NCBI GenBank assembly: GCA_041659805.1
Contig: JBAZXP010000001.1
Span: forward strand, 800,141-864,140
Length of the DNA stretch: 64,000 nucleotides
Reading direction: 5' to 3'
Source: Microgenomates group bacterium
GTDB taxonomy: Bacteria > Patescibacteriota > Microgenomatia > Daviesbacterales > UBA10151
Part shown: in pieces, positions 1 through 18,593 of the stretch
Layout: every line of letters begins with the position of its first letter
How positions within the stretch are numbered: the stretch's first letter is position 1
Notes under the pieces: model-generated
Told to the model about the DNA's origin: nothing
Databases searched by the model: none
What the model saw: only the letters and a program-made list of their open reading frames with translations
Program-made: the position numbers and the translations under genes

Positions 1-2
1 AA

Positions 3-1346
3 AAAGAAGCGGAACGTTATTGTCTGCTGATAGATAAAATATTTAAAGAGGAAGGAAAATCAGCAAAAAACATAGCTGGAAGACCAGTACTTATAAAGCT
101 TCTAGAGTACTGTCGTAAAAACAAAACCAAGATTAAAGCTGTTATTGTTTATCGATTAGACCGGGTATCAAGGGATACTGCCGATTATTTAGCAGTACGC
201 AAAAAACTTAGCGACTGGGGCATTACTATTATCTCTGCTACCGAGCCAACAGGTGACGGCCCGACTGAAAAACTAGTTGAAACTATATTGGCTGGATTTG
301 CCCAACTGGATAACGATATCAGAAGTGAAAGAGCAAAAAACGGAATGCACGCCCGTTTTGAATCAGGACTAATTAGCTCAGCTCCTCCTTTCGGGTATAT
401 AAAGGTTAATGGATTTGTTATGAGGGACGAAGCATCTTTTGACAAAATCAAAAAAGCTTGGGAACTAATGGCAACAGGAACAAAAAGCACTCGAGAGATG
501 GCAGAGATTATGAATAAATGGGGATTTAAAAGAGCTAAAGACGGCAAAAAGTTTAAAATCTCCTACAAATTCGTCCTTAGGATCTTCAGATCTAAATTCT
601 ATTCCGGAATTCTTTATTCACCAACATATAAAGAAGAGGCACAAGGCCAACATATTCCAATGATAACTATGGAAACTTTCTTAAAGGTACAGGAAATAAT
701 TGATGGAAGAAGCCATACAAAAATTAATTTAAAAAGGGATGTTTACCGTGAAGATTTCCCGTTAAGGAGATTCATCAGATGCAGTAAGTGTAACTATAAT
801 TTTACAGCGAGTTGGAGTACAGGTCGTCTTGGCGGTAGATATGCCTATTACCATTGTATAAACAAATGCCAGGGCTCATATATTCAAAGATCCATTTTTC
901 ATGATGCCTTTGCGCAACTATTAAAAACAGTCGATGTAAATAAATTAAGATCACTCACATTAATACTTGTAAATAAGCTACACCAATACCGTCTTGTTAG
1001 GTTTAAACAACGGGAAAGAATAACAGCAAGTCAAATTCAGAAGCTAAATGGCCAAAAACAATCAATGATTGAGAAAAATCTTGCTGGTGTTTTTCCGGAC
1101 GATGTTTTTAAGGAACAGTATCCATTGATAGAAAAACAGTTGCAGAATCTTGCAATACTGAATAATTCATTGCCTTTTGATCAGTATAATCTAGAAAGTG
1201 TGCGTCAACATGTTTTGAAAAACCTGGATGATTTACCAAAAGCCTTTGAGCAATGCGATATCAAACAAAAAAGAACATTTATTGGATTATTATTTCCACA
1301 AGGCTTAGTTTGGAATTATCCAGGGTTAACAATAAAGCGAACTTAA
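3..1346 (+). CDS. Large serine recombinase, 5'-truncated by the window edge. Resolvase catalytic domain continues into the recombinase domain and a C-terminal zinc ribbon.
   Basis: The frame is open from position 3. The ORF track's first residue at 288 is a TTG, not the true start. Translation includes VYRLDRVSRD (resolvase DRxSR-type motif) and a Zn ribbon CSKCNYNF...YYHC. It is a paralog of the recombinase at 16824..18548. Confidence 0.8.
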   Translation, partial: KEAERYCLLIDKIFKEEGKSAKNIAGRPVLIKLLEYCRKNKTKIKAVIVYRLDRVSRDTADYLAVRKKLSDWGITIISATEPTGDGPTEKLVETILAGFAQLDNDIRSERAKNGMHARFESGLISSAPPFGYIKVNGFVMRDEASFDKIKKAWELMATGTKSTREMAEIMNKWGFKRAKDGKKFKISYKFVLRIFRSKFYSGILYSPTYKEEAQGQHIPMITMETFLKVQEIIDGRSHTKINLKRDVYREDFPLRRFIRCSKCNYNFTASWSTGRLGGRYAYYHCINKCQGSYIQRSIFHDAFAQLLKTVDVNKLRSLTLILVNKLHQYRLVRFKQRERITASQIQKLNGQKQSMIEKNLAGVFPDDVFKEQYPLIEKQLQNLAILNNSLPFDQYNLESVRQHVLKNLDDLPKAFEQCDIKQKRTFIGLLFPQGLVWNYPGLTIKRT

Positions 1347-1370
1347 AGGGTTTAGTTATTCTCCCAATAA

Positions 1371-4300
1371 TTGCTCGGCTATCTTATAGCCCTAAATTTT
1401 GCTAAAATTTTATATATAACAATGACAGATCAAAAAAGTGAGACTTCATCCAATGAGAATAATGAGTTTGATATATCGAGAATTATTACTCAAGTAAAAA
1501 TATGGGGTGAGCGTCTTTTGGATTTAACAAAGGGAAATCCTTTATTGGGAATTAATCGATCAAGGGTGAGTAAGCTTCTGATTAAAACTCCTGATGCAAT
1601 ATCATTATTTAAAATGTTGGTCGTTGATGAAGTGGCGATTAAAATGCCATTGGTATTAATAAAGAAAAAAAAGGAGAAACAGGATGAGAAACAAACAAAA
1701 ATTGAAGAGATAGAAGACTCAGAAATTGAACCAGATTGTGTAGTGCATCCTGGGGATGTTGATTTTGACGCAGAGCCAAAAATTTTACATAGATTACTTA
1801 AAAGAATATACGATAATGGGCGATCAACTGTTGAAGAACGTGGCGTTACTACTCTACATTTAACTTTTGGAGTTTTGAACTGGAAAGATCCTATCTTAGG
1901 AGAATCCTCTTCCCCTTTATTATTAGTTCCATGTCAACTGGAGAACTACGGTCCAAATTCACATATGCGACTCAAGATGCTTGATGAAGAACTTCAGGTA
2001 AATCCTGCATTGGAATTTTATCTTAGAAAAAAACATCATATAGATTTGCCCGCGTTTTCTGAAGAACCAACTATTGAATCCCTAAAATTATTTCTATCAC
2101 AAGTACAGGATCGTATTAAAGAACAGCGTTGGGATATTGATAGTACTTCTTGGCTTAGTACATTCACATTTGAATCGCTGGTAATGTACAAAGATTTACA
2201 AACAATGGTAGAGATTGCACAAGTAAATCCTCTTATTGCAGCTCTAGCTAACGCACGTAAGATATCTGAGGGATCAGAAGTTTTGGGAGACGAATTGGAT
2301 AATTTAGATGTACCTAAAATAGTACCAATTCCAGTTATGACTGCTGATGCCAGTCAATTAGAAGCATTAACTATTGCTCAAACTGGTAAACATCTCGTGA
2401 TTAAGGGTCCGCCCGGAACAGGTAAAAGCCAAACAATCACAAATCTTATTGCAGAGGCTATTGGGAACGGTAAAAAGGTGCTCTTTGTTAGTGCCAAGAT
2501 GGCTGCGCTAAATGTAGTTCACGACAGACTTTCAAAGTTAGGTTTAGGAAGATTTTGTCTTGAAGCACACAGTACAAAAGCAGGAAAATTAAAAATTATA
2601 GAAGAACTCAAACGCACCCTAGAGACACCTCTTAGTGGTAATGGCGCATTACTTGAAGAACAACTCGAAGAGTTAAAAAAAATTAAAGCAAACCTTAATA
2701 GCTATGTAAAAGAGATGCATCTGCAAAAAGAGCCTTTAGGAAAAACAATTTTTCAGGCTATTGGTAAATTAGAGAAGCTGAATAATTTTGTATCACTAGA
2801 TTTTGACTTACCATGGTCTGACGTCACAGATGTAAGCAGAGAACAGCTAGGAGAAAGGCTTGAAGCTCTTGAGAATATTGCAGTTCAATCGAATATTTTT
2901 GACAAAAAGAATATTCATCCATGGCGAGGATTTATAGCGGACTCAGAGCAACCAATCTCCTCAGATGTAATTAAAAAAAACTTGCAAATAATTATAGATG
3001 GTGTTGATGATCTTAAGACTTCGCTGGAAAAACTAAATGATCTCTTAGTTCCTGTCGAGCCTGGATTTAAATTAAGAGAACTAAAAAAATTATTACAACC
3101 GTTGAATTCATTAGCCATAACCGATGAATTACCAAAGGGATGGATATCTAAAACAGAGGAGGAATTGAAAGACTTAGAAAATTTATTTGAGACAGCAGTA
3201 ACTAAATCAGAAGAATATCAAGATCTCATAAAGACATTTAAGGTAATTACATCTCTTTCTCCACGAGAATTGTTGGACTTATTGCGGCCGATTAATGAAC
3301 AATTTTCCTCATGGGCTCGAGTTGTTAACCCTAATTTTTGGAAATGGAAATCTTCTATAAGATCACAATTTACACTAAATGCTAATACCTCATATTCTTC
3401 ACTGTGTTCATATTTTGACATGGCCACAACCTTGGAAAAAATAGACATTTGGTTTAACTCAAATAGCAAAATACTTACAAAGTATGTAAGTAATCCCAAT
3501 GTTAATTCGAAATTATTAAGAGATAGAATTATTCATTTCAAAACAGCACATGAATTACAAATAGCGATTTCACAAAATATTCTTAAAAAACCAAAAAAGG
3601 AAATTTTAGATATTACTTCTCAATATCATAAAAGTATTTCAAAAATAATAGAAATTGTTGAAAACAAGGATTTTGAAAGCTCTGTCACAGCAATTGAATC
3701 TAGTTGGCCAGATGGATTTATTAATATGGAAAATATCGAAAATTCAACTTTGTCTTCTATTCAAGATAGAGTTAAAGAAGTTTTAGTATCTATACAGAAA
3801 ATGCACGAATGGATTGTTTTACAATCGTTAATTTCAAAGTGCGAAAATTTAAATCTGTCAAATTTTTTGTTGAGTTTAAAAAAAGTCGGAGCGAAAAATG
3901 CGTCTGAAGTTTTTGAAAAAAGATTTTATTCGCAGTGGATTGAAGCCTCCCTCAACTCCAATCCTAGCTTACTAGGATTTACAGGTTCTCTTCGGGAAGG
4001 GAAAATTAGCCAATTCAAAGATTTAGATAGAAAATTGCAGATTTCTATGCTAAAACGCATTCAATATAACGCATCTGAACCTGCAAGAAGCGTGATAGGA
4101 GCACAGAATAACTTTGGCAGTGGAGGAGAAGTTGGAATTTTGCGTAAAGAATTACAGAAAAGAAAGCGTATAAAACCATTGCGTAGATTATTTAATGAAA
4201 TCCCACATGTATTACAGGCTCTCAAACCTTGTATGTTAATGAGCCCTGTTTCCGTTTCTACTTTTCTAAAACCCGGTAGTGTTAATTTTGATCTTGTTGT

Positions 4301-6188
4301 ATTTGATGAAGCATCTCAACTACCAACTCCAGAGGCAATTCCATCTATTTTGCGCGGAAAGCAAATAATTGTAGCAGGCGATGAGAATCAATTACCGCCA
4401 ACATCTTTCTTTTCGGCATCAACTATATTTGAAGAAGAAAATGAATTAGATCCGTCTGAAGAATTTGAGCCACTAGAATCTTTGCTAGATAATTGTATGG
4501 CAATTGAGCCAGTATTTCAGGAAAGCAAAATAGTCTGGCATTACAGAAGTAAGGACGAGCGCTTAATTCAATTTTCTAATCGATTTTTTTATAATAATTC
4601 TCTTATTACATTTCCTGCTTCAACCACGAGCAATGAAGGTAGAGGCGTACATTTAGTTTACACGGAAAAAGGGACTTGGGATCGAGGACGAAGTAGGACT
4701 AATAGAATTGAAGCAAAACGAGTAGCAGAAGTTGTGGTAGAGCAATTTAAGAAGTATCCTGATCGTTCTTTAGGTGTTGCATCTATGAACGCTAGCCAGA
4801 AAGAGGCTATCGAGGATGCCCTTGATGAATTAATGGTTAACAAGCCCGAGCTACAAGCCCTTCTGGATACAAATCGGCCAGAACCATTCTTTGTTAAATC
4901 ATTAGAAAATGTCCAAGGTGACGAAAGAGATACAATCATTATTTGTGTGGGTTACGCTAAAACCCCAACAGGAGCTCTAAGTCTTAATTTTGGTCCATTA
5001 AATAGTGAGGGTGGGTGGCGCAGATTAAATGTGCTAGTTACAAGAGCTAAGTGGCAAACGATTTTAGTTACAAGTTTACGCAGCCATGAACTAAGCGCAA
5101 TTAACCCACTAAACAAAGGTGCCATCATGCTTCGAAACTATATTCAATATGTCGAACAAGATGGAAAACTTCCTCCTGATCCAGTAACAACAACTAGCGA
5201 TGAAACTAATGATTTTGAAGACTCTATAGCAACCGCTCTTCGAGATCGAGGTCTTATTGTTGACGAGCAAGTAGGTGCTAGTGAATATCGCATTGACCTT
5301 GCAATTCGAGATCCTAGAGATAAAAATAGATATATTATGGCCGTTGAATGTGATGGTGCTACTTATCATCATACAAAAACAGCACGTGACCGAGATATGT
5401 TGCGCGAGGAAGTGTTGCGATCTCAAGGTTGGAAAATATATCGTGTATGGTCTACAGATTGGTTCAGGGATCGTGAAGATGCACTTAAAGGGATACTTTC
5501 AGGATTAGAAGCAGCAAAGAGAGCACCTGCAAAGGACTCTGTGCAGGCTAAGCCAATTATTCAAGTCACAAGTAATATAGAGCATTCATACGATGATTTG
5601 ATCAAGGAAAAAGATTCGGCGAATCACAAAAGAAAGTACAAGCAAGGTATTCCTTACCGAAAGTATTTGTTAAATAATAAAAGGAAGTTTTCAAAAGAAT
5701 TATTAAACAAAAATGGAACTGTTCAACTGTCAGCAGTTATCACCAGTATTGTTAAATACGAATCACCGATACACGCAGATGTAATCATCGAAAGATTAAA
5801 AGAAATATATGGAGTAAGTCGGGCTGGGGCGAATATACAAAAAAATGTAACCTATGCAATAGAGAGATCTACACACTGGTCAGATTTGATAAATCGATCA
5901 GGATTTATATATAAAAACGAAGATGACAATAACGAATTTAGAGTTCCCGCACAAGGAGTGGTAAGAGGCCTAAATCAAATTGCACCAGAAGAAATTGAGA
6001 ATGCAATACTTTATCTAGTTGAAGATCAGTTTGGCTTTGCACGAGAACATATTTCCAAAGCAATTTTAGAAGTTTTCGGCATTGGTAATAATCGCGCGGA
6101 GCCTATTGAAATTATAGAGTCAGCGATTAATCGACTACTTAGTAAGAAAAAATTAAATTTGAATGGCCACACCTTATATCTTAGCTAA
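1371..6188 (+). CDS. Large multidomain helicase-nuclease: DUF4011-like N-terminus, Upf1-like SF1 helicase core (AAA_11/AAA_12), DUF559 (Vsr/REase-like) endonuclease domain and a DUF3320-like C-terminus. The likely true start is the ATG at 1422 (MTDQKSE...).
   Basis: Walker A GPPGTGKSQTITNL. Motif II VVFDEASQLP plus AGDENQLPPT. Motif VI NVLVTRAKWQTILV. N-terminal LHLTFGVLNWKD...LLLVPCQLE is DUF4011-like. YRIDLAIRDP...AVECDGATYHH...RDR..L...GW.IYRVWSTDWF is DUF559-like. VITSIVKYESPIHADVIIERL is DUF3320-like. Confidence 0.85.
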   Translation: MLGYLIALNFAKILYITMTDQKSETSSNENNEFDISRIITQVKIWGERLLDLTKGNPLLGINRSRVSKLLIKTPDAISLFKMLVVDEVAIKMPLVLIKKKKEKQDEKQTKIEEIEDSEIEPDCVVHPGDVDFDAEPKILHRLLKRIYDNGRSTVEERGVTTLHLTFGVLNWKDPILGESSSPLLLVPCQLENYGPNSHMRLKMLDEELQVNPALEFYLRKKHHIDLPAFSEEPTIESLKLFLSQVQDRIKEQRWDIDSTSWLSTFTFESLVMYKDLQTMVEIAQVNPLIAALANARKISEGSEVLGDELDNLDVPKIVPIPVMTADASQLEALTIAQTGKHLVIKGPPGTGKSQTITNLIAEAIGNGKKVLFVSAKMAALNVVHDRLSKLGLGRFCLEAHSTKAGKLKIIEELKRTLETPLSGNGALLEEQLEELKKIKANLNSYVKEMHLQKEPLGKTIFQAIGKLEKLNNFVSLDFDLPWSDVTDVSREQLGERLEALENIAVQSNIFDKKNIHPWRGFIADSEQPISSDVIKKNLQIIIDGVDDLKTSLEKLNDLLVPVEPGFKLRELKKLLQPLNSLAITDELPKGWISKTEEELKDLENLFETAVTKSEEYQDLIKTFKVITSLSPRELLDLLRPINEQFSSWARVVNPNFWKWKSSIRSQFTLNANTSYSSLCSYFDMATTLEKIDIWFNSNSKILTKYVSNPNVNSKLLRDRIIHFKTAHELQIAISQNILKKPKKEILDITSQYHKSISKIIEIVENKDFESSVTAIESSWPDGFINMENIENSTLSSIQDRVKEVLVSIQKMHEWIVLQSLISKCENLNLSNFLLSLKKVGAKNASEVFEKRFYSQWIEASLNSNPSLLGFTGSLREGKISQFKDLDRKLQISMLKRIQYNASEPARSVIGAQNNFGSGGEVGILRKELQKRKRIKPLRRLFNEIPHVLQALKPCMLMSPVSVSTFLKPGSVNFDLVVFDEASQLPTPEAIPSILRGKQIIVAGDENQLPPTSFFSASTIFEEENELDPSEEFEPLESLLDNCMAIEPVFQESKIVWHYRSKDERLIQFSNRFFYNNSLITFPASTTSNEGRGVHLVYTEKGTWDRGRSRTNRIEAKRVAEVVVEQFKKYPDRSLGVASMNASQKEAIEDALDELMVNKPELQALLDTNRPEPFFVKSLENVQGDERDTIIICVGYAKTPTGALSLNFGPLNSEGGWRRLNVLVTRAKWQTILVTSLRSHELSAINPLNKGAIMLRNYIQYVEQDGKLPPDPVTTTSDETNDFEDSIATALRDRGLIVDEQVGASEYRIDLAIRDPRDKNRYIMAVECDGATYHHTKTARDRDMLREEVLRSQGWKIYRVWSTDWFRDREDALKGILSGLEAAKRAPAKDSVQAKPIIQVTSNIEHSYDDLIKEKDSANHKRKYKQGIPYRKYLLNNKRKFSKELLNKNGTVQLSAVITSIVKYESPIHADVIIERLKEIYGVSRAGANIQKNVTYAIERSTHWSDLINRSGFIYKNEDDNNEFRVPAQGVVRGLNQIAPEEIENAILYLVEDQFGFAREHISKAILEVFGIGNNRAEPIEIIESAINRLLSKKKLNLNGHTLYLS

Positions 6189-6225
6189 ACTAAATCAAGC
6201 AAATTTAAATATATAGCGACTTCTT

Positions 6226-7725
6226 TTAAATGATAACTGGGGCATATAATTCTTTCCAGATAGCATACATTGCATATGCATCTAGACCACAGTATTTTTT
6301 TAAGTCTGTAATAATTTTTTCTTTTTCTAGCTGATCTATTTTTTCAGAATACAATCTATTCCAAATTTCTGCAGCGCTTCCCCCATCTTGTATTTCCAGC
6401 TCTTTATAGCTAAGACTAGGTACCATTACTGGTAATACTTTTTTAATTGAAGTACTACCTTTAAAATCCTTATGCACATAATATTGTTTTTTGAATATAT
6501 CCATTAAGTCATATACTCGTATATTCAAAGAATCTATGAATTCTTTAACCTCAGGAATTCTCAAAGCTATTTCACTATTTCTTCCGCACTCAAAAACTTT
6601 ATTCCAAACAATAACACTACCTGAATCTTGTATGTTTTTTTGTAGCGAATCAACAAAATACCTACTTGGATCATCGAGATCCGAATGAAGAAATTCTAAT
6701 AATTTTGGTTCTTCATCTGCAGACTCAAGAACATAAAGCGAATATTGAAAAGGAATATGCTGATAGGGAGAAAATCCATCAAAACGGGGTATAGCACAAG
6801 GAAGTGTTTCGTAATCGATGAAATATAGAGGAAATTTTAAATTTTGTAGTTCTTTTAAAATTGTATCTTTGTTAATAAGTGGAGCATTGGATTTGTATGC
6901 ATCAATTTGATTTTGTTGAATATCAGAGAGTTTAATATGTGGTGGAATTTGGTGAATTTCAAAAATGTTACCATCAACTAAGTCCTGTAGTTTTTGCCTG
7001 CTTAAGCCTATACGAGAGATGTCGTGAATACCATATTCCGGTATATCAGGATTTATTATAGAAAAACAAGTGCAGTGATTAGATCTTCCTTTATATACAC
7101 ATGTACAAAAACCAACTGGAAGAGATTCTTGGGAGAGGTATGTAATGCCACTATCCATTTCAATTGAGACCTCTTCACAAAGACTTTCGATTTTTTCAGT
7201 AATATCTTCAATTTGAAAGAGTCCTATTATATTCAATTCTCCCGATCGAATATATTCCTTATTAAGATGGATAAGACAAATCTTTTCTACAGTTAGCCCT
7301 GACTTGCGAAGTAAATTCACTTGAAATGCTAAATCATAGTAATGAATCTTTTCGTCAATTTCATTTGTAGATTTTACTTCATATACTGTATAGCCGTTTG
7401 TTTCGGAATTAAGCTCCAGAATATCAATAGCTGCAAAGAAGTAATCTTTTTCAAACGCCGCTTGAAAGATAATAGGTGTCTTATCTTCAATATATTTTAA
7501 TGTCAGTAATTGCTCTGCACGATCCCTACCTTCTACTAAAACCCCTGCTGGAAAAAGTTTACGAGCCGCTAATTCAACTTCATTCCCTGCTTGTATAATC
7601 ATTCTTTCGAATGCAGATAATTCATGTTGGTAGTAAATCTTGGGTTCATGTATCTTGTACCAAGCATTCTTTTTACAAGCTCTATATAATATATAATCTG
7701 TTTTAGATAACGTGATTGAATTCAT
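6226..7725 (-). CDS. Cas4-like PD-(D/E)xK nuclease domain protein with a cysteine cluster and a ~270-aa C-terminal domain of unknown function (architecture resembles DUF2779-type proteins)
   Basis: N-terminal YRACKKNAWYKIHEP. AIDILE...YTVYEVKSTNE supplies the D...ExK motifs. CTCVYKGRSNHCTCF is a cysteine cluster. The gene is convergent with the helicase gene and tandem with a second Cas4-like gene. Confidence 0.6.
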   Translation of the reverse strand: MNSITLSKTDYILYRACKKNAWYKIHEPKIYYQHELSAFERMIIQAGNEVELAARKLFPAGVLVEGRDRAEQLLTLKYIEDKTPIIFQAAFEKDYFFAAIDILELNSETNGYTVYEVKSTNEIDEKIHYYDLAFQVNLLRKSGLTVEKICLIHLNKEYIRSGELNIIGLFQIEDITEKIESLCEEVSIEMDSGITYLSQESLPVGFCTCVYKGRSNHCTCFSIINPDIPEYGIHDISRIGLSRQKLQDLVDGNIFEIHQIPPHIKLSDIQQNQIDAYKSNAPLINKDTILKELQNLKFPLYFIDYETLPCAIPRFDGFSPYQHIPFQYSLYVLESADEEPKLLEFLHSDLDDPSRYFVDSLQKNIQDSGSVIVWNKVFECGRNSEIALRIPEVKEFIDSLNIRVYDLMDIFKKQYYVHKDFKGSTSIKKVLPVMVPSLSYKELEIQDGGSAAEIWNRLYSEKIDQLEKEKIITDLKKYCGLDAYAMYAIWKELYAPVII

Positions 7726-7736
7726 AACTTACTTCC

Positions 7737-8576
7737 TTAAATTATGTATACATCCTGATAACCACCCGCAGTACCTACATATTCAGCATCCCCATTTATT
7801 ATCGCTATGTAAGGTTTACATGCATAACATCCATTTTTAGGACAATTAAATTCGCCAATCGCTTTTGCTTTTTTAATTCTACGTCCAAACTCAATAAGGC
7901 TCTTTTTTGATTCATCCAAATCAGGTAATTCCATTTGTTTAAGCTCATCCTTACTCTCAAGATACCAATAACTAATCTTATGAATATTTCTTTTTTGAAG
8001 ATTTTGCACAAGTAAACAATAAATAGCTAACTGTAACGAACTTGGATCTTCTTCGTATTTACCAGTCTTAAAATCGATAATATGCACACTGTTTGTTTCT
8101 GGAACATATTCCATCCAGTCAATTTTCCCGCTTAAAATAATATTGTCTTCTATCGAGAGCTGAAAATGTGGTAAAGGGAAAGAAGGATCAGGTATATGTA
8201 AAGTAAGCGCCTTATTGGCTATTGGCCCTGGATGATCAATGACATGCTGTATCATTAATCGTCCTCGCTCTTTATACACATTTTCTTCATCTTGGGACTT
8301 GAATCCTCCCCGTTTGCCAGAAATTTCTTTCCAAACCTCATCATACCTATCTAAAAGCGAAACTTTTAGTCTATCCTCGGCTTTCAAGGTAGATAAGGCC
8401 TCTAATACAGAATGAACTGATTGACCAAGTGCCATTGGAGGATTGATGAGTGCAATTTTATGTCTTGTATTTGGATCTTTATAAACATTGTGAAAATAAT
8501 AAGCTTTAGGGCACTTTATAAAATCACTTATCGAAGAATGCGATACCCAAGTTGCTGAATAGCTATCATTTTTCAT
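7737..8576 (-). CDS. Cas4/RecB-family PD-(D/E)xK nuclease with a 4-Cys Fe-S-type motif
   Basis: N-terminal Cys in ISDFIKCPKAYYF. Motif II GKIDWMEY. Motif III HIIDFKTGK (DYKTG-like). QhxxY motif QLAIYCLL. C-terminal CPKNGCYACKPY. Confidence 0.75.
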   Translation of the reverse strand: MKNDSYSATWVSHSSISDFIKCPKAYYFHNVYKDPNTRHKIALINPPMALGQSVHSVLEALSTLKAEDRLKVSLLDRYDEVWKEISGKRGGFKSQDEENVYKERGRLMIQHVIDHPGPIANKALTLHIPDPSFPLPHFQLSIEDNIILSGKIDWMEYVPETNSVHIIDFKTGKYEEDPSSLQLAIYCLLVQNLQKRNIHKISYWYLESKDELKQMELPDLDESKKSLIEFGRRIKKAKAIGEFNCPKNGCYACKPYIAIINGDAEYVGTAGGYQDVYII

Positions 8577-8670
8577 TATAATCGGAAAGTTTATTAGTAT
8601 TATACATCTTCAAGGGTTATATATTTCAAATATTTTTATACTTTTTTGATACAATTATTAAATAATCCCT

Positions 8671-9390
8671 ATGGGTATTTTTAGTAAATTATTTCGATCT
8701 ACTTCACAACATAAACCTCATAACACAATAATGAAAGAACAGAACTTGAAGGGTGGAAATAATAATTTATGTCCATACTGTGGTGCTATTTTTGAGAAAC
8801 TACCAAAAAGAAAAACTAAATGTCCAAAATGTGAGGGTGAGTGTTTCGTTCGTACAACACAAACAATATTTCCCTCGACCCTTTTAACGAAAGAGGATGC
8901 TCTAGCAGCAGACTTTTTCAAAGAACTAGAGTACCTTGGGGCTACTACTAAAGACTATACCAAAATTGAAGCTGAATTATCAAAGAGATGGGACACTAAA
9001 GCCAAATCTTATGATGTTGTCTGGGGCATCTCAAACTGGCTTATTACTCAACTTTCTGGAAATGAATCGACCATGTTACACAACGCTAAAATGATTACCT
9101 TCGGACAAGCTTTGTATCAAGCCAATAGAGGTAAGAATCCAAATTCCTATTTAGGCACAGTGCATGATTACGAAATTCAAATAGCTAAGAGGAGTGGTCT
9201 ACCCCTGTCTCATTTTGTAATTGAGGCAGATTCATGTTGTAAAGAATGTAGTAAATATCAGGGTAAAAAATATACTGCCGAAGAATTAAAAAAAGATCCA
9301 ATCCTTCCCATAAAGGAATGTACGAATAAACTTAACTCAACAGATAAATTTGCATGGTGTACCTGTATTTATAGCCCTCATTATCTCTAG
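8671..9390 (+). CDS. Hypothetical protein with an N-terminal zinc ribbon
   Basis: CPYCGAIFEKLPKRKTKCPKCEG near the N-terminus, and C-terminal CCKEC...C...C cysteines. No recognizable catalytic domain. The promoter region is divergent with the Cas4-like gene. Confidence 0.5.
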   Translation: MGIFSKLFRSTSQHKPHNTIMKEQNLKGGNNNLCPYCGAIFEKLPKRKTKCPKCEGECFVRTTQTIFPSTLLTKEDALAADFFKELEYLGATTKDYTKIEAELSKRWDTKAKSYDVVWGISNWLITQLSGNESTMLHNAKMITFGQALYQANRGKNPNSYLGTVHDYEIQIAKRSGLPLSHFVIEADSCCKECSKYQGKKYTAEELKKDPILPIKECTNKLNSTDKFAWCTCIYSPHYL

Positions 9391-9981: not shown

Positions 9982-9995
9982 TTCTATAAACCTAC

Positions 9996-10036
9996 CGTTT
10001 GTTTAACATGCAAGCGGTAGGTTTTATTCTACAACT
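9996..10036 (+). terminator. Rho-independent terminator-like hairpin followed by a T tract
   Basis: ACCTACCG...CGGTAGGT stem (8 bp) followed by TTTTATTC, immediately after the 9575..9981 stop codon. The loop is long (17 nt). Confidence 0.35.
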
Positions 10037-10085: not shown

Positions 10086-10102
10086 GACCTAAAGTAAAAG
10101 TA

Positions 10103-12025: not shown

Positions 12026-12058
12026 ACATGCCTATAGTGTGCTAGAATTCCTGTCTAT

Positions 12059-12672: not shown

Positions 12673-13452
12673 TTATTCTACTTTCTGCCAGATACTTGTT
12701 TTGTCTTTAGTAAACCGGATTGCATCTTGTGTAGTTAAAAATAGTGAGATGTCTTCAAATGTTTTTTCCAAAACTGCTTTACCGTAATAATAGATATGCT
12801 TTTTTCTCTTTTCGTCCTGAAGGATGAAAAGAATTAAGGGGAAAGGGCTATTATTCGTATTGGCTTGCCAGTCACCGCATTCGCAGTAGGAAATATATTG
12901 TTTTATTCTTTGCCTTGGAAGAAATGCCGGGTTTTTATAACCGTCATAAAGATCAAGAAAATACCTGTCTGTCCCTTCTTTGCTGTTAACCGCAATATAA
13001 GCGTCTGGTAACTCATCAGGGAAATAATCATATCCTATCAAATCTTGTGGTGTAAAAAAGCTTAGTTCTGTATCTCTTGCTTGTTGTTTTAAGAAAAAGA
13101 GATAGATATCAAAAATAAAAAGACAATGGTTTCTAAAATTCTCAGTTAATTTCTTCTCCTTATATATTCTTTCTAAAAAGCTTTTGTCATTATTTTCATC
13201 TTCTTGCAAAATATGTCTTGCTTTTGTATCTAAGCAGAATATAAAAGGTTTTGTAGGATTTTTTGTGTCTTTTATTGCGTAGATATATTTATTTTCTCTT
13301 AATGTTTTTAATCGTTCTTTTACTCTGTGTGGATCTTTATGATTAAAGTATTTTTGTAGTTGGTTGATTGTTAGGAAACGGAATTTGTAGAGTAAGAAGA
13401 GAATTTGTTTTTGGTATTTTTTTATTGATTTAGTATTTTTATTATCTTTCAT
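12673..13452 (-). CDS. Replication-relaxation family-like protein with an N-terminal winged-helix domain
   Basis: N-terminal ILFLLYKFRFLTINQLQKYF...RVKERLKTLRENKYI matches the hallmark ILxLLyxhRFLTxxQlxxLlf...RLkkLxexGli of Replication-relaxation (PF13814-type) proteins. It lies adjacent to a coupling-protein-like ATPase. Confidence 0.6.
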   Translation of the reverse strand: MKDNKNTKSIKKYQKQILFLLYKFRFLTINQLQKYFNHKDPHRVKERLKTLRENKYIYAIKDTKNPTKPFIFCLDTKARHILQEDENNDKSFLERIYKEKKLTENFRNHCLFIFDIYLFFLKQQARDTELSFFTPQDLIGYDYFPDELPDAYIAVNSKEGTDRYFLDLYDGYKNPAFLPRQRIKQYISYCECGDWQANTNNSPFPLILFILQDEKRKKHIYYYGKAVLEKTFEDISLFLTTQDAIRFTKDKTSIWQKVE

Positions 13453-13620
13453 ATTTTTAGTTAAGAAGTTGAGGCAGAGGATTAGATATAGGTAAGTTTA
13501 AACTCCTTGGTGGGATTATATAACATCCACTTATATTTATATAAGTATAAAGAGTCTGTAATTATTTCTATTTTAGTCTCAAATTGTACAAATTTTAGTA
13601 CCCACACGTAGGTACTATTT

Positions 13621-16524
13621 TTAGCTCTTTCTATCCTCTGGAAAACCGCTTTTAGATGTAACTATATTTTTACTATTTGAATGCTTTTCATTGCTAACTT
13701 CACTTAGATTGTTAGTAACTTTTTGATATTTGATTGCCCAGTTTTTTCTTGAAGCCTCAATTAATTTTTCAATCTTTTTAGAATTTTTATCTACAGGTAT
13801 AAATATTGTTTCACCAGAAAAAGGTTCCTCCGATTCAATTGCGGAAATTTTAATATAAAAGCGATATCTTGGAAGATTCATAATCGCACCTTTTTCCAAG
13901 TAAGGGCTGAACTGATTTAGCATTAACTCCTCGTCAACATAATTACCGCTTCTGAAACTAATAACTGTGGTGACATTGGCAAGAATAATATTTGTAATAT
14001 CCCTGTCTTTTTGCTGGGAGGTGGATTGTTCTGCAATTATTAAAGGCATTTTATATTTTCTTCCCTCAGTAACCATTTTGGTAAATGAGGGGGTAGCAAA
14101 AGTTTGAAATTCATCAACATATAAATAGAAACTTTTTCTTTTGTTTTGTGGAATGTACGCTCTTTTTAATGCTGCTTGTTGAAGTTTGGTCATAATGGTT
14201 GTACCCATTAATCTTGAAGAATCTTCTCCTAATTTTCCCTGTGAGAAATTACAAATTAAAATTTTTCCTTGATTAATAATGTCATCAAAGTTTATTGTTG
14301 ATTTTGACTGTTCAAGGATTCTTTTAGCAGTTGGGGAGCGCATAAACCTTCCGACTTTTGCTGTTACACCCTGTGTCATTTTTACAACCTGAAAGTCTCC
14401 GGCTTTGCCAAATTCGTATTTCCAAAAATCAACCAAGTCTTCATCTTTTAATCGGCTAATTACATTTTTTCTAAAAGTAGGATTTGTTAAAATTTTATTG
14501 ATAGTAAATAAGGTGCATTCTTCGATTGTAAATGCAGTATAAATAGTATTTCGTAAAATATATTCAATCCTATGGGCATTGGTACTTTCGTCTTTAGAAA
14601 AAACTTTTCTAAACAGGGAAATTACACCTTCAGCGACTACTTCTTTTTCTAACTCTGCATCTTCCTCGTCTAATCCTCGAGTGAGTTCCAATAAATTAAT
14701 TCCTATTGGATACTTTAAATCAATGGGGTTAACATAAATTAGATCATCCTTTCTACTTAAGGGAATTGATGCAACCAGATCTTCTGCCACATCTCCATGC
14801 GGATCAATAAAAGCTAAACCTCTACCTTCTTCGATATCGTGTTTAGCCATTGAAAACATTAAGGTTGTTTTTCCACTTCCAGTTCTTCCCAAAATATACA
14901 TATGGGTTTGTCTTTCTTCCTCTGTTAGCCCAATATCCGTAGTTGTCCCTCCGTATGTATTTTTTCCGAAGATGACATTTAATTTTGTATCTTTTTTTAG
15001 AGACAAAGGAGCTGGTAGCTCTTTGCTGTAAAGTTTTACAATATCTTCTGTTTTTGTTGTATCAGTGTAAGGAAAATGATAAAAATCCGAGAGTTCAGAA
15101 ATAGAAAGAATGGGGTTTTTATTAAAAACGCTACTATGCGACAGTATTCTTCTTTTAAATTGGTCTAACCGCTGCCTTATTACTAATGGAGAAGGGAATA
15201 AACTTCTTTTCGTATTAATCGACTGGAAGGCTGTATTCATAACACCAAAGGATGCCATAAGGCCAGAGACCCTGCTTTTAAGCTCTTCTGAATCCTTTGT
15301 TATAACAAGCATTCGTATTGATGTTTCAAACAAAGGCTGGTCTATTTTTTCTTTTACAGTTATTTGTAACTCCTGTTCGTAAGGATTTAGCGTTTCTTGT
15401 GTGGAAGCAGCATCCATCGCCTCAGAAGCCATTAAAAAAGGAATCGCTTTACCGTTTGGATCCATAAAACCCAAAAGCATGCTATAGACAAACATCCAAA
15501 AAAATTTAAAAATCGACCATACTCCTTTGATAAATATTGCAATGATTGAAACTCCTGGTAATTCAGCAATCTTTTGTAAAATGTTTTGGTTTAACAGGGG
15601 CGTAAGCGGTTGTCTTTGGTACATACTCTTCCTTAAACCATTCATACTGCTTACAATATTTTTATGAGTATTCGACAAGACAGGAGTTGTCACTATTTGA
15701 AATGATATAAGCTCATTATCTTTTAGCTTTGTCATGTTACCAGTCAAATAAGAAATCGGATCGTGTTCTTCGAGCACTTTTTGTTTAGAAAGAGGCAAGG
15801 CAAAGGTTGATGCTAGTTTAAACTCAACAATACCTTGATATATTTTGTCTTGTGGGTTATCTTCTATATAATCTTCTACCTCTACAATCCTTATACCTGG
15901 CAAATAAGATAAAAGGCTCCTCTTAATAACATTGGCATTTTTTATATCTGTTACAAGAATATATCTAATCCCTTGATTCTTGGTTGAAATAATTTCCAGG
16001 CTAAATACTTTTTTATTTTTTAATAATCGTTCACTAAAACTTTGTTGCCTGGCAAGGCTATGTAGTAGCGTGTAAAGCTGTTGAGTAGCATATGCTGATT
16101 TACTAGTATCAGACGGAAAGGTTAATTCAAGAAAAACCTTGTTTGGTTTAGGAATAAATTTTGAAAAAAGAAACGGGGATAGTGTTTGAAAGAGTGAAGC
16201 CAAAATCTTCGTAAAAATCAAAAGAATAGCTATGCTTAAAATAAGAGTTACCGGCCAAAATATGATTAAAATACTGACGGCTACAGGTTGCGCGCCAAAT
16301 AATCCCGTAACAGACGAGCTTGAAGCAGTAAGTGCATTATACATATCCAGTCTCGATTGAAGTGGAAAGAGTGACTCAGGTAATGGAAATTTAAGCAGGA
16401 AGCCTAAAATAAGAGCATTTATAAAAGGCATTTGCTGGTTTTGTATCTGCTGGAGCAACTGCAATTGCTGGACATCAACTGCGTTGTGGGGAATAAATGT
16501 CGGCAATGGCGTTTGATTTGTCAT
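13621..16524 (-). CDS. TraD/VirD4/TraG-like type IV coupling protein (FtsK/HerA-superfamily ATPase) with N-terminal transmembrane segments
   Basis: Walker A YILGRTGSGKTTLMF followed by FIDPHGD. Walker B SFYLYVDEFQTFAT...RKYKMPLIIAEQS. Several N-terminal hydrophobic helices. The protein is 967 aa. Confidence 0.7.
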   Translation of the reverse strand: MTNQTPLPTFIPHNAVDVQQLQLLQQIQNQQMPFINALILGFLLKFPLPESLFPLQSRLDMYNALTASSSSVTGLFGAQPVAVSILIIFWPVTLILSIAILLIFTKILASLFQTLSPFLFSKFIPKPNKVFLELTFPSDTSKSAYATQQLYTLLHSLARQQSFSERLLKNKKVFSLEIISTKNQGIRYILVTDIKNANVIKRSLLSYLPGIRIVEVEDYIEDNPQDKIYQGIVEFKLASTFALPLSKQKVLEEHDPISYLTGNMTKLKDNELISFQIVTTPVLSNTHKNIVSSMNGLRKSMYQRQPLTPLLNQNILQKIAELPGVSIIAIFIKGVWSIFKFFWMFVYSMLLGFMDPNGKAIPFLMASEAMDAASTQETLNPYEQELQITVKEKIDQPLFETSIRMLVITKDSEELKSRVSGLMASFGVMNTAFQSINTKRSLFPSPLVIRQRLDQFKRRILSHSSVFNKNPILSISELSDFYHFPYTDTTKTEDIVKLYSKELPAPLSLKKDTKLNVIFGKNTYGGTTTDIGLTEEERQTHMYILGRTGSGKTTLMFSMAKHDIEEGRGLAFIDPHGDVAEDLVASIPLSRKDDLIYVNPIDLKYPIGINLLELTRGLDEEDAELEKEVVAEGVISLFRKVFSKDESTNAHRIEYILRNTIYTAFTIEECTLFTINKILTNPTFRKNVISRLKDEDLVDFWKYEFGKAGDFQVVKMTQGVTAKVGRFMRSPTAKRILEQSKSTINFDDIINQGKILICNFSQGKLGEDSSRLMGTTIMTKLQQAALKRAYIPQNKRKSFYLYVDEFQTFATPSFTKMVTEGRKYKMPLIIAEQSTSQQKDRDITNIILANVTTVISFRSGNYVDEELMLNQFSPYLEKGAIMNLPRYRFYIKISAIESEEPFSGETIFIPVDKNSKKIEKLIEASRKNWAIKYQKVTNNLSEVSNEKHSNSKNIVTSKSGFPEDRKS

Positions 16525-16666: not shown

Positions 16667-16837
16667 ATGGCAAGACTGAAAGGTAGTAAGAATAAAAATT
16701 CCGAAGAAAGAATCACAACCTCTAGCTTGTCACTTCAGGAAAGACTGCGCTTTATTGCTAACCTGATCATAGAAAAAGCCTTAGAAGATCAGAAAAACGG
16801 CAAGGTTTTAATTAGAAAGATCTATGAGTCTAAGTAA
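16667..16837 (+). CDS. Small basic protein (56 aa) immediately upstream of, and overlapping, the serine recombinase start. Candidate recombination directionality factor or regulator.
   Basis: Manual translation gives MARLKGSKNKNSEERITTSSLSLQERLRFIANLIIEKALEDQKNGKVLIRKIYESK*. It overlaps the recombinase ATG by 14 nt and lies downstream of a strong promoter-like site. Confidence 0.35.
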   Translation: MARLKGSKNKNSEERITTSSLSLQERLRFIANLIIEKALEDQKNGKVLIRKIYESK

Positions 16838-18548: not shown

Positions 18549-18593
18549 TAAACAGATCCAAAGTCTGTTGTCCTACCATTAGACGATCCCGCA
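18520..18593 (-). tRNA. tRNA-Gln (anticodon UUG), CCA encoded
   Basis: Manual fold: acceptor UGCGGGA/UCCCGCA with U1:A72, anticodon stem ACAGA/UCUGU, loop CUUUGGA, T-arm CAUGG-UUCGAAU-CCAUG, discriminator G then CCA. It overlaps the recombinase 3' end by about 26 nt. Confidence 0.75.

What the first reader, a model, noticed from the sequence alone, without database searches (positions are those of the whole stretch)
1371..8576. Helicase-nuclease giant protein plus two tandem Cas4-like Fe-S nucleases. Candidate undescribed defense or DNA-end-processing system on a mobile element.
The cluster sits on an element bounded by serine recombinases. It has three parts:
- A 1605-aa protein combining a DUF4011-like N-terminus, an Upf1-like SF1 helicase (Walker A GPPGTGKSQT, DEASQ, GDENQLPP, VTRAK), a DUF559 Vsr/REase-like endonuclease domain and a DUF3320-like tail.
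- A Cas4-like PD-(D/E)xK nuclease with a cysteine cluster and an extra ~270-aa domain (6226..7725).
- A canonical Cas4/RecB-family nuclease with the motifs D, DFKTG, QxxxY and CxxxxCxxC (7737..8576).
The two nuclease genes are convergent with the helicase gene.

Helicase plus Fe-S RecB-family nuclease mirrors AddAB/AdnAB end-resection logic. Single-protein Upf1-like helicase-nucleases also occur in antiphage systems. No CRISPR array is nearby, so the Cas4-like genes are not CRISPR adaptation genes. The combination and location fit an anti-phage/anti-plasmid module or an element-encoded DNA-processing machine. I cannot match it to a named system.
Basis: partly seen in the sequence, partly recalled or inferred. 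Interest (0 to 1): 0.75.

Follow-up and report, generated by a model that had tools for sequence, protein, structure and literature searches.

The report
Helicase-nuclease with two accessory Cas4-like nucleases
A mobile element in a tiny-genome (CPR) bacterium carries an already catalogued candidate anti-phage helicase-nuclease next to two DNA-end nucleases, and related genomes show that one of those nucleases repeatedly teams up with different helicases, which hints at a function for a widespread uncharacterised enzyme.

Summary
The three genes are real, intact and at the stated coordinates.

- **Giant protein.** It is not undescribed. It matches the PADLOC candidate single-gene defence family PDC-S37 over its full length. 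It is related to the anti-phage proteins Hhe and ProA but scores below both equivalog cut-offs. In 87 family loci it has no conserved neighbour.
- **499-aa protein.** It belongs to the DUF2779 family: a Cas4-like Fe-S nuclease fused to a DEDDy 3'-5' exonuclease. This architecture is already published.
- **279-aa protein.** It is an AddB/Cas4-like Fe-S nuclease.
- **Linkage.** DUF2779 genes sit directly beside, or fused to, helicases far more often than chance. Partners are Upf1-like helicases with a Vsr-type nuclease, Pif1 (including two fusion proteins) and SNF2. The partners are shuffled between lineages.
- **The trio recurs.** An SF1B helicase plus both nucleases appears again with a Pif1 helicase in an ordinary chromosomal context.
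- **Setting.** The genes lie on a roughly 19-kb integrated mobilisable element next to tRNA-Gln in a Microgenomates genome. There is no CRISPR array.

This is an optional helicase plus end-nuclease module built around a known candidate defence gene. It is a new variant of a known kind, and whether it serves defence or repair is unresolved.

The parts
1422..6188 (+). Giant helicase-nuclease of the PDC-S37 family. It is 1588 aa from the ATG at 1422; the longest ORF starts at the TTG at 1371.
   Evidence: - PADLOC PDC-S37: 1223 bits over profile positions 5-1542 of 1550.
- NCBIfam ProA: 1183 bits against a cut-off of 1500. NCBIfam Hhe: 802 bits against 2000.
- More than 6600 homologues.
- Gene called as 1588 aa on identical contigs.
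1512..2021 (+). DUF4011 N-terminal domain of the giant protein. Fold and role are unknown.
   Evidence: - Pfam PF13195: 86 bits.
- AlphaFold model of the first 310 aa: pLDDT 76.
2346..5075 (+). Upf1-like SF1B helicase core. It spans the N-terminal part of AAA_11 with Walker A at about 2406-2429, a long insert of about 550 aa, motif II DEASQ at about 4305-4319, and AAA_12 at 4536-5075.
   Evidence: - Pfam AAA_11 and AAA_12.
- PDB sequence matches to IGHMBP2, Sen1, Dna2 and Upf1.
- Motifs are invariant in alignment A2.
5214..5501 (+). Vsr-type restriction-endonuclease-fold domain (MTES_1575/DUF559).
   Evidence: - Pfam PF18741: 119 bits; DUF559: 24.5 bits.
- The domain was defined as a novel Vsr REase in PMC3710099.
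5709..5843 (+). DUF3320 region in the C-terminal tail.
   Evidence: - Pfam PF11784: 40.6 bits.
- PMC3710099 equates DUF3320 with two wHTH domains.
6226..7725 (-). DUF2779 dual nuclease, 499 aa. The Cas4-like Fe-S PD-(D/E)xK domain maps to about 7051-7725. The DEDDy 3'-5' exonuclease domain maps to about 6229-6840.
   Evidence: - Pfam DUF2779: 132 bits.
- Invariant catalytic and cysteine residues.
- Model pLDDT 84.
- The same architecture is published for MMSYN1_0389.
7737..8576 (-). PDDEXK_1 nuclease, 279 aa. It is an AddB/Cas4-like RecB-family nuclease with a 4-cysteine cluster. It is the first gene of the two-gene nuclease operon.
   Evidence: - Pfam PDDEXK_1: 72 bits. Cas4 models score below their cut-offs.
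- Invariant D153, D168, K170, Q182, Y186, C22, C245, C250 and C253.
- 2569 homologues, mostly from CPR bacteria.
1..1346 (+). Context: the left serine recombinase of the element. The gene starts about 96 nt before the window and encodes 480 aa.
   Evidence: - Pfam Recombinase and Zn_ribbon_recom.
- The full gene, including the Resolvase domain, is present on the identical contig L011.
- The reading frame is open from window position 3.
12673..16524 (-). Context: the transfer backbone of the element. It comprises a Replic_Relax relaxase-like gene (12673..13452) and a 967-aa coupling-protein-like ATPase (13621..16524).
   Evidence: - Pfam Replic_Relax.
- DUF87, TrwB_AAD_bind and TraG-D_C, and DUF8128.
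- Homologues lie beside DUF2779 in L014, L069 and L082.
16824..18593 (.). Context: the right serine recombinase (16824..18548, + strand), whose end overlaps tRNA-Gln (18520..18593, - strand). This is the probable integration site.
   Evidence: - Pfam Resolvase, Recombinase and Zn_ribbon_recom.
- ARAGORN tRNA-Gln.
- Housekeeping genes lie beyond this point.

Best explanation
**What it is**
- The region is cargo on a roughly 19-kb integrative mobilisable element in a Microgenomates (CPR) genome.
- The core is a PDC-S37-family protein related to the anti-phage proteins Hhe and ProA. It combines a DUF4011 N-terminal domain, a 5'-3' Upf1-like SF1B helicase, a Vsr-type endonuclease and a DUF3320 tail (two wHTH domains according to PMC3710099).
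- Members of this family can evidently work alone.
- Here it is joined by an optional accessory operon of two RecB/Cas4-fold Fe-S nucleases. One is an AddB-like PDDEXK_1 protein. The other is a DUF2779 protein that also carries a DEDDy 3'-5' exonuclease.

**How it most likely works (inferred)**
1. The helicase-nuclease engages foreign or damaged DNA, nicks or cuts it, and unwinds it.
2. The accessory nucleases degrade both released strands. The Cas4-like domains take the 5' strand and the DEDDy domain takes the 3' strand.
3. Together they form a split Dna2/AddAB-like end-destroying machine.

**What is shown and what is inferred**
- Shown: the domain identities, intact catalytic residues, the mobile-element setting, and the recurrent tight helicase-DUF2779 linkage with partner swapping.
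- Inferred: physical cooperation, nuclease polarities, the target, and the anti-phage or anti-plasmid purpose.
For: **Family assignment**

**The close DUF2779 clade always has a helicase beside it**
- All 8 independent loci at 61-100% identity have an SF1B helicase within 6 kb.
- Six of them have a helicase with an MTES_1575 domain. Five are tail-to-tail, with end-to-end spacing from a small overlap to about 40 nt in four loci and 1.2 kb in L008. One (L007) is divergent.

**Unbiased GTDB sample of 80 DUF2779 loci**
- Six have an Upf1-like helicase directly adjacent.
- The density of such helicase genes is 14 times higher within 1.5 kb than farther out (p = 3e-4). Over all DUF2779-ascertained loci p = 3e-7.
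- Fourteen of 80 have some helicase fused or within 300 nt.

**Partner phylogenies are discordant, so the pairing arose repeatedly** (rho = 0.08)

| Pair of loci | DUF2779 identity | Helicase identity |
|---|---|---|
| window vs L181 | 90% | 26% |
| window vs L007 | 61% | 78% |
| L185 vs L045 | 57% | 80% |
| L018 vs L086 | 48% | 88% |

**Fusions and parallel arrangements**
- Pif1-DUF2779 fusion proteins occur in L041 and L057.
- The trio recurs as DUF2779, PDDEXK_1, Pif1 operons in L054, L039 and L070.
- In L008 a NERD nuclease takes the place of PDDEXK_1.
- In L183 a giant orthologue is followed by a PF13482 protein. PF13482/COG2251 is a related RNase H-like family that, like DUF2779, carries a Cas4-like DUF83 domain.
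- In L121 a full-length PDC-S37 gene, an MmeI-like methyltransferase gene and a DUF2779 gene lie in one direction.

**Defence-like company on plasmids**
- DUF2779 lies with WYL, PLD, GHKL ATPase, AAA+ ATPase and ResIII genes.

**Structural parallels**
Against: - Most giant-family loci lack any such nuclease. Only 4 of 87 have DUF2779 within 5 kb, and that count includes the window. Five of 6 close-orthologue loci lack both nucleases.
- Most DUF2779 loci (about 80%) have no adjacent helicase. Fifteen share conserved housekeeping synteny with dnaG, rpoD and hisS.
- A DUF2779 member is quasi-essential in the minimal cell JCVI-syn3.0. That points to maintenance rather than defence.
- In the window the nuclease operon is convergent with the helicase gene, so they are not co-transcribed.
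- PDC-S37 is a candidate family. I found no experimental paper on it or on ProA.
- Some CPR orthologues of the giant gene lie near repair genes: uvrA, uvrABC and xseA.
- Many loci come from MAGs or short contigs. ORFs were called mechanically.
Confidence: 0.55

Rival explanations
1. Coincidental neighbours. The giant protein is a self-sufficient single-gene system. The two nucleases are general DNA-repair or maintenance enzymes of CPR bacteria. They happen to be clustered with it in a variable, nucleic-acid-conflict-rich stretch of a mobile element, with no functional coupling.
For: - PDC-S37 is modelled as a single-gene candidate.
- No neighbour is conserved across 87 giant-family loci.
- Five of 6 close-orthologue loci lack both nucleases.
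- DUF2779 and PDDEXK_1 are each widespread. They keep about 55-60% identity across CPR classes and are usually not adjacent to each other (3 of 80 loci).
- Fifteen DUF2779 loci share housekeeping synteny.
- A DUF2779 member is quasi-essential in syn3.0.
Against: - Helicase genes are concentrated immediately next to DUF2779 (p = 3e-4 to 3e-7).
- All 8 loci of the closest DUF2779 clade have an SF1B helicase beside or near the gene.
- The pairing arose repeatedly with unrelated partners.
- Pif1-DUF2779 fusion proteins exist.
- The same trio recurs with Pif1.
Confidence: 0.27
2. A DNA-repair or recombination machine, not immunity. An SF1B helicase plus an AddB-like nuclease plus a Cas4-DEDDy nuclease would act as a CPR substitute for RecBCD, AddAB or Dna2 end resection. 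The copy in the window would serve the mobile element's own maintenance, establishment or recombination.
For: - The Pif1 version of the trio sits among ordinary chromosomal genes: M50 and M48 peptidases, GGDEF, NUDIX.
- DUF2779 is quasi-essential in a minimal cell.
- The closest structures are repair or replication nucleases: MrfB, Dna2, AdnAB, Exo5 and polymerase proofreading domains.
- Giant orthologues lie near uvrA, uvrABC and xseA.
- The Pseudomonas aeruginosa DUF4011 gene is a core gene present in every isolate.
Against: - The giant protein's nearest named relatives are annotated as anti-phage.
- Its genomic neighbourhoods are hypervariable, as for defence genes.
- DUF2779-helicase pairs sit with restriction-modification methylases and ResIII genes (L014, L185, L121).
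- On plasmids DUF2779 lies with PLD, WYL and GHKL genes.
- The window copy is on a mobile element, and one MAG carries three differently partnered copies.
Confidence: 0.15
3. CRISPR adaptation remnants. The two Cas4-like genes would be orphaned cas4 genes from a lost CRISPR-Cas locus.
For: - There are weak hits to Cas4 models (PADLOC 18-35 bits, TIGR00372 33 bits).
- The fold is Cas4-like.
Against: - Both proteins score below every curated Cas4 cut-off.
- No repeat array was found in the 64-kb window.
- No cas gene appeared among the neighbours annotated in the window or in the related loci examined in detail. Cas genes were not searched for systematically.
- Both families are large and conserved, with their own architectures.
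Confidence: 0.01

Closest known systems
PADLOC PDC-S37 (single-gene phage-defence candidate)
   Same: - Full-length profile match: 1223 bits over profile positions 5-1542 of 1550.
- Same architecture: DUF4011, Upf1-like helicase, Vsr-type REase and DUF3320.
- Usually stand-alone, with variable neighbours.
   Different: - Here, and in a minority of loci, it is accompanied by DUF2779 with or without PDDEXK_1 nuclease genes. These are not part of any PADLOC model hit.
- PDC-S37 is a prediction. I found no experimental report on it.
Hhe (DUF4011 anti-phage helicase-nuclease; NCBIfam NF042953) and ProA (NCBIfam NF058533)
   Same: They are homologous over the helicase, Vsr-REase and C-terminal regions. 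ProA scores 1183 bits over profile positions 343-1901, and Hhe scores 802 bits. Hhe is listed as a DUF4011 single-gene system.
   Different: - The protein scores below both equivalog cut-offs (1500 and 2000 bits).
- It lacks the first roughly 340 profile positions of ProA.
- No paper describing ProA could be found.
DUF2779/PF11074 family, e.g. MMSYN1_0389 of JCVI-syn3.0 (PMC13621843) and family F.17 of the RNase H-like superfamily (PMC3985635)
   Same: - Same two-domain architecture: a Cas4-like N-terminal domain plus a DEDDy exonuclease.
- Function is uncharacterised.
   Different: - The window protein keeps all four Fe-S cysteines, whereas MMSYN1_0389 keeps two.
- The recurrent helicase coupling documented here is not mentioned in those papers. 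The nearest statement is the note that the sister family COG2251 often carries tandem AAA domains.
Dna2, and the AddAB/AdnAB end-resection enzymes
   Same: - The logic is the same: an Fe-S PD-(D/E)xK nuclease works with an SF1 motor on DNA ends.
- The Dna2 helicase matches the giant protein's helicase.
   Different: - The components are separate genes.
- The helicase is Upf1-like SF1B, with its own Vsr nuclease.
- An extra DEDDy exonuclease is present.
- There is no UvrD-type SF1A motor as in AddA or AdnB.
- The resemblance is in working logic, not family membership.
Mokosh (MkoA/MkoC Upf1-like helicase with a PLD nuclease)
   Same: It uses an Upf1-like AAA_11/AAA_12 helicase in a defence context. 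Hits are weak: MkoA 90 bits and MkoC 55 bits.
   Different: There is no PLD nuclease, the scores are far below those for PDC-S37, and the nuclease domains differ.

Membership tests
PADLOC PDC-S37 | Full-length match to the family profile PDLC05009 | tested here: met
   1223 bits, E = 0, protein residues 37-1600 aligned to profile positions 5-1542 of 1550.
PADLOC PDC-S37 | Single-gene system with no obligate partner | tested here: met
   No neighbour is conserved in 87 loci. Five of 6 close-orthologue loci lack the nucleases.
PADLOC PDC-S37 | Demonstrated anti-phage activity | not testable with these tools
   No paper mentions PDC-S37. An experiment is needed.
Hhe (NCBIfam NF042953 equivalog) | Whole-protein score at or above the curated cut-off of 2000 bits | tested here: not met
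   802 bits. The best stretch covers only profile positions 917-1711.
ProA (NCBIfam NF058533 equivalog) | Whole-protein score at or above 1500 bits, with the complete 1903-position architecture | tested here: not met
   1183 bits. The alignment starts at profile position 343, so the N-terminal module is absent.
CRISPR-associated Cas4 | Score above the curated Cas4 cut-offs (TIGR00372 65 bits; PF01930 22.7 bits) | tested here: not met
   The 279-aa protein scores 33.1 and 19.5 bits. The 499-aa protein has no hit in these libraries.
CRISPR-associated Cas4 | Location beside cas1/cas2 genes or a CRISPR array | tested here: not met
   No arrays in the 64-kb window. Of the neighbours within about 10 kb, those with a recognisable family are recombinases, a relaxase and a coupling ATPase; the rest have no hit.
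CRISPR-associated Cas4 | PD-(D/E)xK fold with a 4-cysteine Fe-S cluster and a QxxxY motif | tested here: met
   [not shown]
DUF2779 / PF11074 | Pfam score above the gathering cut-off, plus the Cas4-like and DEDD(y) two-domain architecture | tested here: met
   131.9 bits against a cut-off of 23.3. Residues D304, E306, D406, Y478 and D482 are conserved.
AddAB / AdnAB / RecBCD | UvrD-like SF1A helicase domains fused to RecB-type nuclease domains in a heterodimer | tested here: not met
   The helicase is Upf1-like SF1B. The RecB-type nucleases are separate small proteins.
Dna2-like | An Fe-S PD-(D/E)xK nuclease and an SF1B helicase in one polypeptide | tested here: not met
   In the window the domains are split across convergent genes. 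Only fold and sequence resemblance is seen. Single-chain helicase-DUF2779 fusions do exist, but with Pif1 (L041 and L057).
Mokosh | An MkoA/MkoC helicase together with a PLD-family nuclease | tested here: not met
   Only weak MkoA and MkoC hits (90 and 55 bits). No PLD domain was found in the cluster.

The most novel reading that the evidence does not exclude
DUF2779, often together with an AddB-like PDDEXK_1 nuclease, is a portable dual-polarity end-nuclease module. It plugs into interchangeable motors: Upf1-like helicases with a Vsr nuclease, Pif1 and SNF2. Together they form a split Dna2/AddAB-like DNA-end-destroying machine. Chromosomal versions would serve genome maintenance, which would explain why the family is quasi-essential in the minimal cell JCVI-syn3.0. 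Versions on mobile elements, such as the one in this window, would turn a PDC-S37/Hhe-type sensor helicase into a multi-nuclease defence system.
Probability: 0.35. Interest if true: 0.7.

Novelty: new variant of a known kind. Interest (0 to 1): 0.45.

Why it matters
- If the coupling is functional, it gives a concrete, testable role to PF11074/DUF2779. This nuclease family is widespread and uncharacterised, and one member is quasi-essential in the minimal synthetic cell. The proposed role is a helicase-dependent nuclease that degrades both strands at DNA ends.
- It would also show that Hhe/PDC-S37-type single-gene helicase-nucleases can be extended by accessory nucleases.
- It documents defence-like or end-processing cargo on an integrative mobilisable element in CPR bacteria. 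Their mobile elements and DNA-repair equipment are poorly known.
- If the coupling is not functional, the locus is an ordinary catalogued candidate defence gene lying next to two common nucleases.

Tried and rejected
1. **Literature on ProA and PDC-S37.** Five full-text searches found no paper that defines either. The ProA and Hhe relationship therefore rests on the NCBIfam and PADLOC profiles alone.
3. **Attachment-site repeats.** A k-mer comparison of the two element junctions found only a chance 13-mer. Serine recombinases need no long repeats, so the exact element ends remain undefined.
4. **Metagenome scan with the giant alignment.** The patterns chosen were generic Walker-A-region peptides. 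The scan returned mostly 28-50% relatives, so it samples the broad family and not the CPR orthologues.
5. **Viral contigs.** DUF2779 appears in only 7 viral contigs and PDDEXK_1 in none. A phage origin or phage recombination module was rejected.
6. **CRISPR-adaptation reading.** Rejected.
7. **Co-divergence of helicase and DUF2779.** This was tested as a sign of a vertically inherited unit and was not found (rho = 0.08). Partners are swapped instead.
8. **Profile comparison of DUF2779 with the PF13482 protein of L183.** It aligned the Cas4-like motifs but was statistically weak (hhalign E = 0.0095, probability 4%). I treat the two as analogous, relying on PMC3985635.
9. **Promoter and terminator scan of 5900-9000.** It gave nothing above the shuffled expectation.

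Full report
**1. Observation**

The three ORFs exist as described: 1371..6188(+), 6226..7725(-) and 7737..8576(-).

Giant protein:
- Pfam finds DUF4011, AAA_11, AAA_12, MTES_1575/DUF559 and DUF3320.
- Gene callers on identical contigs start the gene at the ATG at 1422, giving 1588 aa.

499-aa protein:
- Pfam finds DUF2779 at residues 301-426.
- An alignment of 25 homologues shows invariant C17, C207, C209 and C218, plus D101, E116, K118 and Q135. These are the Cas4-type residues.
- The same alignment shows invariant D304, E306, D406, Y478 and D482. These are the DEDDy residues.

279-aa protein:
- It matches PDDEXK_1 at 72 bits.
- The D, DxK, QxxxY and C...Cx4Cx2C motifs are invariant.
- It scores below the curated Cas4 cut-offs.

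No CRISPR-like array is present in the 64-kb window.

**2. Where it sits**

- Both nuclease proteins are 100% identical to proteins of a Microgenomates-group (CPR) MAG with a 1.13-Mb contig.
- The left serine recombinase is intact but begins before the window.
- Inside the element are a Replic_Relax relaxase-like gene and a 967-aa coupling-protein-like ATPase.
- The right serine recombinase overlaps tRNA-Gln at 18520..18593.
- Host genes lie outside. On the left are a cation ATPase and an iron permease. On the right are a nucleotidyl transferase, a glycosyltransferase and a GlmS-like gene.
- This is therefore a roughly 19-kb integrative mobilisable element.
- A related backbone lies beside a 69%-identical DUF2779 gene in L014. 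The coupling protein there is 48% identical, the relaxase 35% and the recombinase 45%.
- A TrbC gene lies beside the 90%-identical nuclease pair in L181.

**3. The giant protein is a known kind**

- It matches PADLOC PDC-S37 over the full length of the profile at 1223 bits. PDC-S37 is a single-gene phage-defence candidate. It also matches Hhe at 575 bits.
- In NCBIfam it hits 'anti-phage protein ProA' at 1183 bits, below the 1500 cut-off. The first roughly 340 profile positions are absent.
- It hits the 'DUF4011 anti-phage protein Hhe' model at 802 bits, below the 2000 cut-off.
- The family has more than 6600 members in the database searched. It occurs on 492 plasmids, some of them archaeal.
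- The helicase is Upf1/IGHMBP2/Sen1/Dna2-like SF1B.
- MTES_1575 was defined as a Vsr-type REase and DUF3320 as two wHTH domains (PMC3710099).
- The DUF4011 domain has no structural neighbour in the PDB.

**4. Is the trio a conserved system? Viewed from the giant protein, no**

| Locus | Identity to the giant protein | Nucleases within reach |
|---|---|---|
| L001 | 85% | none |
| L003 | 73% | none |
| L005 | 65% | none |
| L184 | 73% | none; xseA downstream |
| L183 | 80% | a 500-aa PF13482 (RNase_H_2) protein, from a related RNase H-like family that also carries a Cas4-like domain |
| L007 | 78% | both nucleases, but divergent and upstream, not convergent and downstream |

- Clustering the neighbours of 87 giant-family loci found no conserved partner.
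- The most recurrent neighbour was DUF2779, in 4 loci including the window.

**5. Viewed from the nucleases, there is a real but optional coupling to helicases**

The GTDB sample:
- A scan with the DUF2779 alignment found 348 relatives. Eighty loci were kept.
- PDDEXK_1 is adjacent in only 3 of them.
- Upf1-like helicase genes, mostly with an MTES_1575 domain, are directly adjacent in 6 of 80.
- Their density within 1.5 kb is 14 times that farther away (p = 3e-4). Over all DUF2779-ascertained loci p = 3e-7.

The clade closest to the window (at least 61% identity, 8 independent loci):
- Every locus has an SF1B helicase within 6 kb. Six of the eight have a helicase-MTES_1575 gene.
- Window: the giant gene, convergent, 37-nt gap.
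- L181: a 1082-aa helicase with MTES_1575 and RAP domains, 26% identical to the giant protein, overlapping tail to tail.
- L182: a fragment of at least 651 aa, 38% identical.
- L185: a 1506-aa helicase-MTES protein, with ResIII/TnsA-like and N6_N4 methylase genes beside it.
- L008: a 1383-aa PDC-S37-like protein. A NERD nuclease lies where PDDEXK_1 lies in the window.
- L007: the giant orthologue, divergent.
- L014: an AAA_11/AAA_12 helicase with a type III restriction-modification system.
- L015: a Pif1 helicase 971 nt away.

Partner shuffling:
- Identities of the partners are discordant, at 90/26, 61/78, 57/80 and 48/88 (% DUF2779 / % helicase), with rho = 0.08.
- The pairing was therefore assembled repeatedly, not inherited once.

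Other helicase partners:
- Pif1 is fused to the N-terminus of DUF2779 in L041 and L057, giving proteins of 995 and 993 aa.
- SNF2 helicases lie 4-12 nt upstream, or overlapping in L017, in 7 loci spanning CPR and Acidobacteriota.
- In all, 14 of 80 GTDB loci have a helicase fused or within 300 nt.

The trio with Pif1:
- L054 carries DUF2779, PDDEXK_1 and Pif1 genes in one tight operon.
- L039 and L070 carry DUF2779, DUF2914, PDDEXK_1 and Pif1 genes.
- L054 lies among ordinary chromosomal genes.

Other settings:
- In L121, a full-length PDC-S37 gene, an MmeI/Eco57I-like methyltransferase gene and a DUF2779 gene lie in one direction.
- On plasmids of Campylobacterota, Cyanobacteria and Betaproteobacteria, DUF2779 lies with PDDEXK_4, WYL, PLD, GHKL-ATPase, AAA+ and ResIII genes.
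- About 80% of DUF2779 loci have no adjacent helicase. Fifteen share housekeeping synteny with dnaG, rpoD and hisS.

**6. Literature**

- PMC13621843 describes the DUF2779 member MMSYN1_0389 as a Cas4-like plus DEDDy fusion of unknown role. That gene is quasi-essential in JCVI-syn3.0.
- PMC3985635 places DUF2779 (family F.17) and COG2251/PF13482 (family F.13) among 3'-5' exonucleases that carry a Cas4-like DUF83 domain. It notes tandem AAA domains in COG2251.
- None of the seven papers that mention DUF2779 describes the helicase coupling found here, judging from their titles and abstracts and from the two I read.
- No paper defining ProA or PDC-S37 was found.
- My own recollection is that Hhe was shown to be anti-phage by Gao et al. 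2020. Here that is supported only by the family names.

**7. Interpretation**

- Best reading (confidence 0.55): a stand-alone-capable PDC-S37/Hhe-type helicase-Vsr nuclease, carried as mobile-element cargo, with an optional accessory operon of two RecB/Cas4-fold nucleases.
- By analogy with Dna2 and AddAB, the motor would unwind DNA while the Cas4-like and DEDDy domains degrade the two strands.
- Shown: the domains, the catalytic residues, the element, and the non-random, repeatedly assembled linkage.
- Inferred: a complex, the nuclease polarities, the target, and the purpose.
- Rivals: coincidental neighbours (0.27), a repair or recombination machine with no immune role (0.15), and CRISPR remnants (0.01).

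**8. Caveats**

- Many loci are MAG or short contigs cut near the gene of interest.
- ORFs in the fetched loci were called mechanically.
- 'Upf1-like' was detected with an HMM built from the giant alignment.
- The metagenome sample of giant relatives is dominated by distant members.
- The close-clade loci were chosen by sequence similarity to the window proteins.

**9. Verdict**

- The giant protein is already catalogued. The nuclease architectures are published.
- What appears new is the recurrent, partner-swapping coupling of DUF2779, with or without PDDEXK_1, to SF1B and SNF2 helicases. The window is one instance, carried on a mobile element.
- This is a new variant of a known kind, of moderate interest (0.45).

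Noticed in passing
window 1-18593 (the left end lies about 100-500 nt before the window; see L011:16380-18189): A roughly 19-kb integrative mobilisable element in a CPR (Microgenomates) genome. It carries two large serine recombinases, a Replic_Relax relaxase-like gene and a 967-aa coupling-protein-like ATPase, and it abuts tRNA-Gln. A homologous backbone occurs in L014, and coupling-protein homologues in L069 and L082. No attachment-site repeats were found.
   Followed up: partly
L041:535-3519 and L057:86-3064: Single ORFs of 995 and 993 aa fuse a Pif1-like SF1B helicase (PIF1 plus Pif1_2B domains) to a full DUF2779 dual nuclease. They come from two independent CPR assemblies.
   Followed up: partly
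L054:9995-13687; L039:603-5293; L070:496-5605: Co-directional operons of DUF2779, PDDEXK_1 and Pif1 genes, with a DUF2914 gene inserted in L039 and L070. PDDEXK_1 is followed by Pif1 in all three GTDB loci where it lies near DUF2779. L054 is in an ordinary chromosomal context.
   Followed up: partly
L017, L074, L080, L083, L084, L087, L089 (gene immediately upstream of DUF2779 at about 10001): A roughly 1175-aa SNF2-family helicase lies 4-12 nt upstream of DUF2779, or overlapping it in L017. It resembles DrmD and BrxH in PADLOC at about 190 bits. The seven loci span CPR and Acidobacteriota.
   Followed up: partly
L014, L015, L045 (contigs of one MAG, CAZHDZ01, SRP286056_co1_222): One MAG carries three DUF2779 copies with different partners. 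One is with a mobile element, a type III restriction-modification system and an AAA_11/12 helicase. One is with Pif1. One is with a convergent PDC-S37-like helicase. This could be paralogue specialisation or a mixed bin.
   Followed up: no
L183:3396-10305: An 80%-identical orthologue of the giant protein is flanked by an SNase-family nuclease upstream. Downstream lies a 500-aa PF13482 (RNase_H_2) protein whose N-terminus aligns weakly with the Cas4-like motifs of DUF2779.
   Followed up: partly
L121:2725-11849: Tightly spaced genes in one direction: a full-length PDC-S37 gene (1497 aa), an MmeI/Eco57I-like methyltransferase gene (1069 aa) and a DUF2779 gene (482 aa, 31% identical to the window protein).
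   Followed up: partly
L187-L189 (plasmids NZ_CP104379, NZ_LR882954, NZ_CP019242): On plasmids of Aliarcobacter, Planktothrix and Rhodoferax, DUF2779 lies in operon-like arrays with PDDEXK_4, WYL, PLD, GHKL-ATPase, double-AAA+ and ResIII helicase genes. These look like uncharacterised multi-gene conflict systems.
   Followed up: partly
[not shown]
   Followed up: partly
window 8671-11047: Three ORFs lie between the nuclease operon and the transfer genes: 239 aa rich in CxxC zinc-ribbon motifs, 186 aa and 314 aa. None matched any Pfam, NCBIfam or PADLOC family searched above its cut-off (the 314-aa ORF was not scanned against PADLOC). None has a homologue in the related loci.
   Followed up: partly
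L001, L003, L184 (flanks of giant-protein orthologues): CPR orthologues of the giant gene lie within 10 kb of uvrA (L001) or uvrB-uvrA-uvrC (L003), or directly upstream of xseA (L184). This could be chance in compact genomes or a hint of a repair role.
   Followed up: no
window 22769-28050: A loose cluster of five tRNA genes on the minus strand (Gly-GCC, Phe-GAA, Val-TAC, Leu-GAG, Leu-CAG) is interspersed with glmS-like and unknown genes.
   Followed up: no
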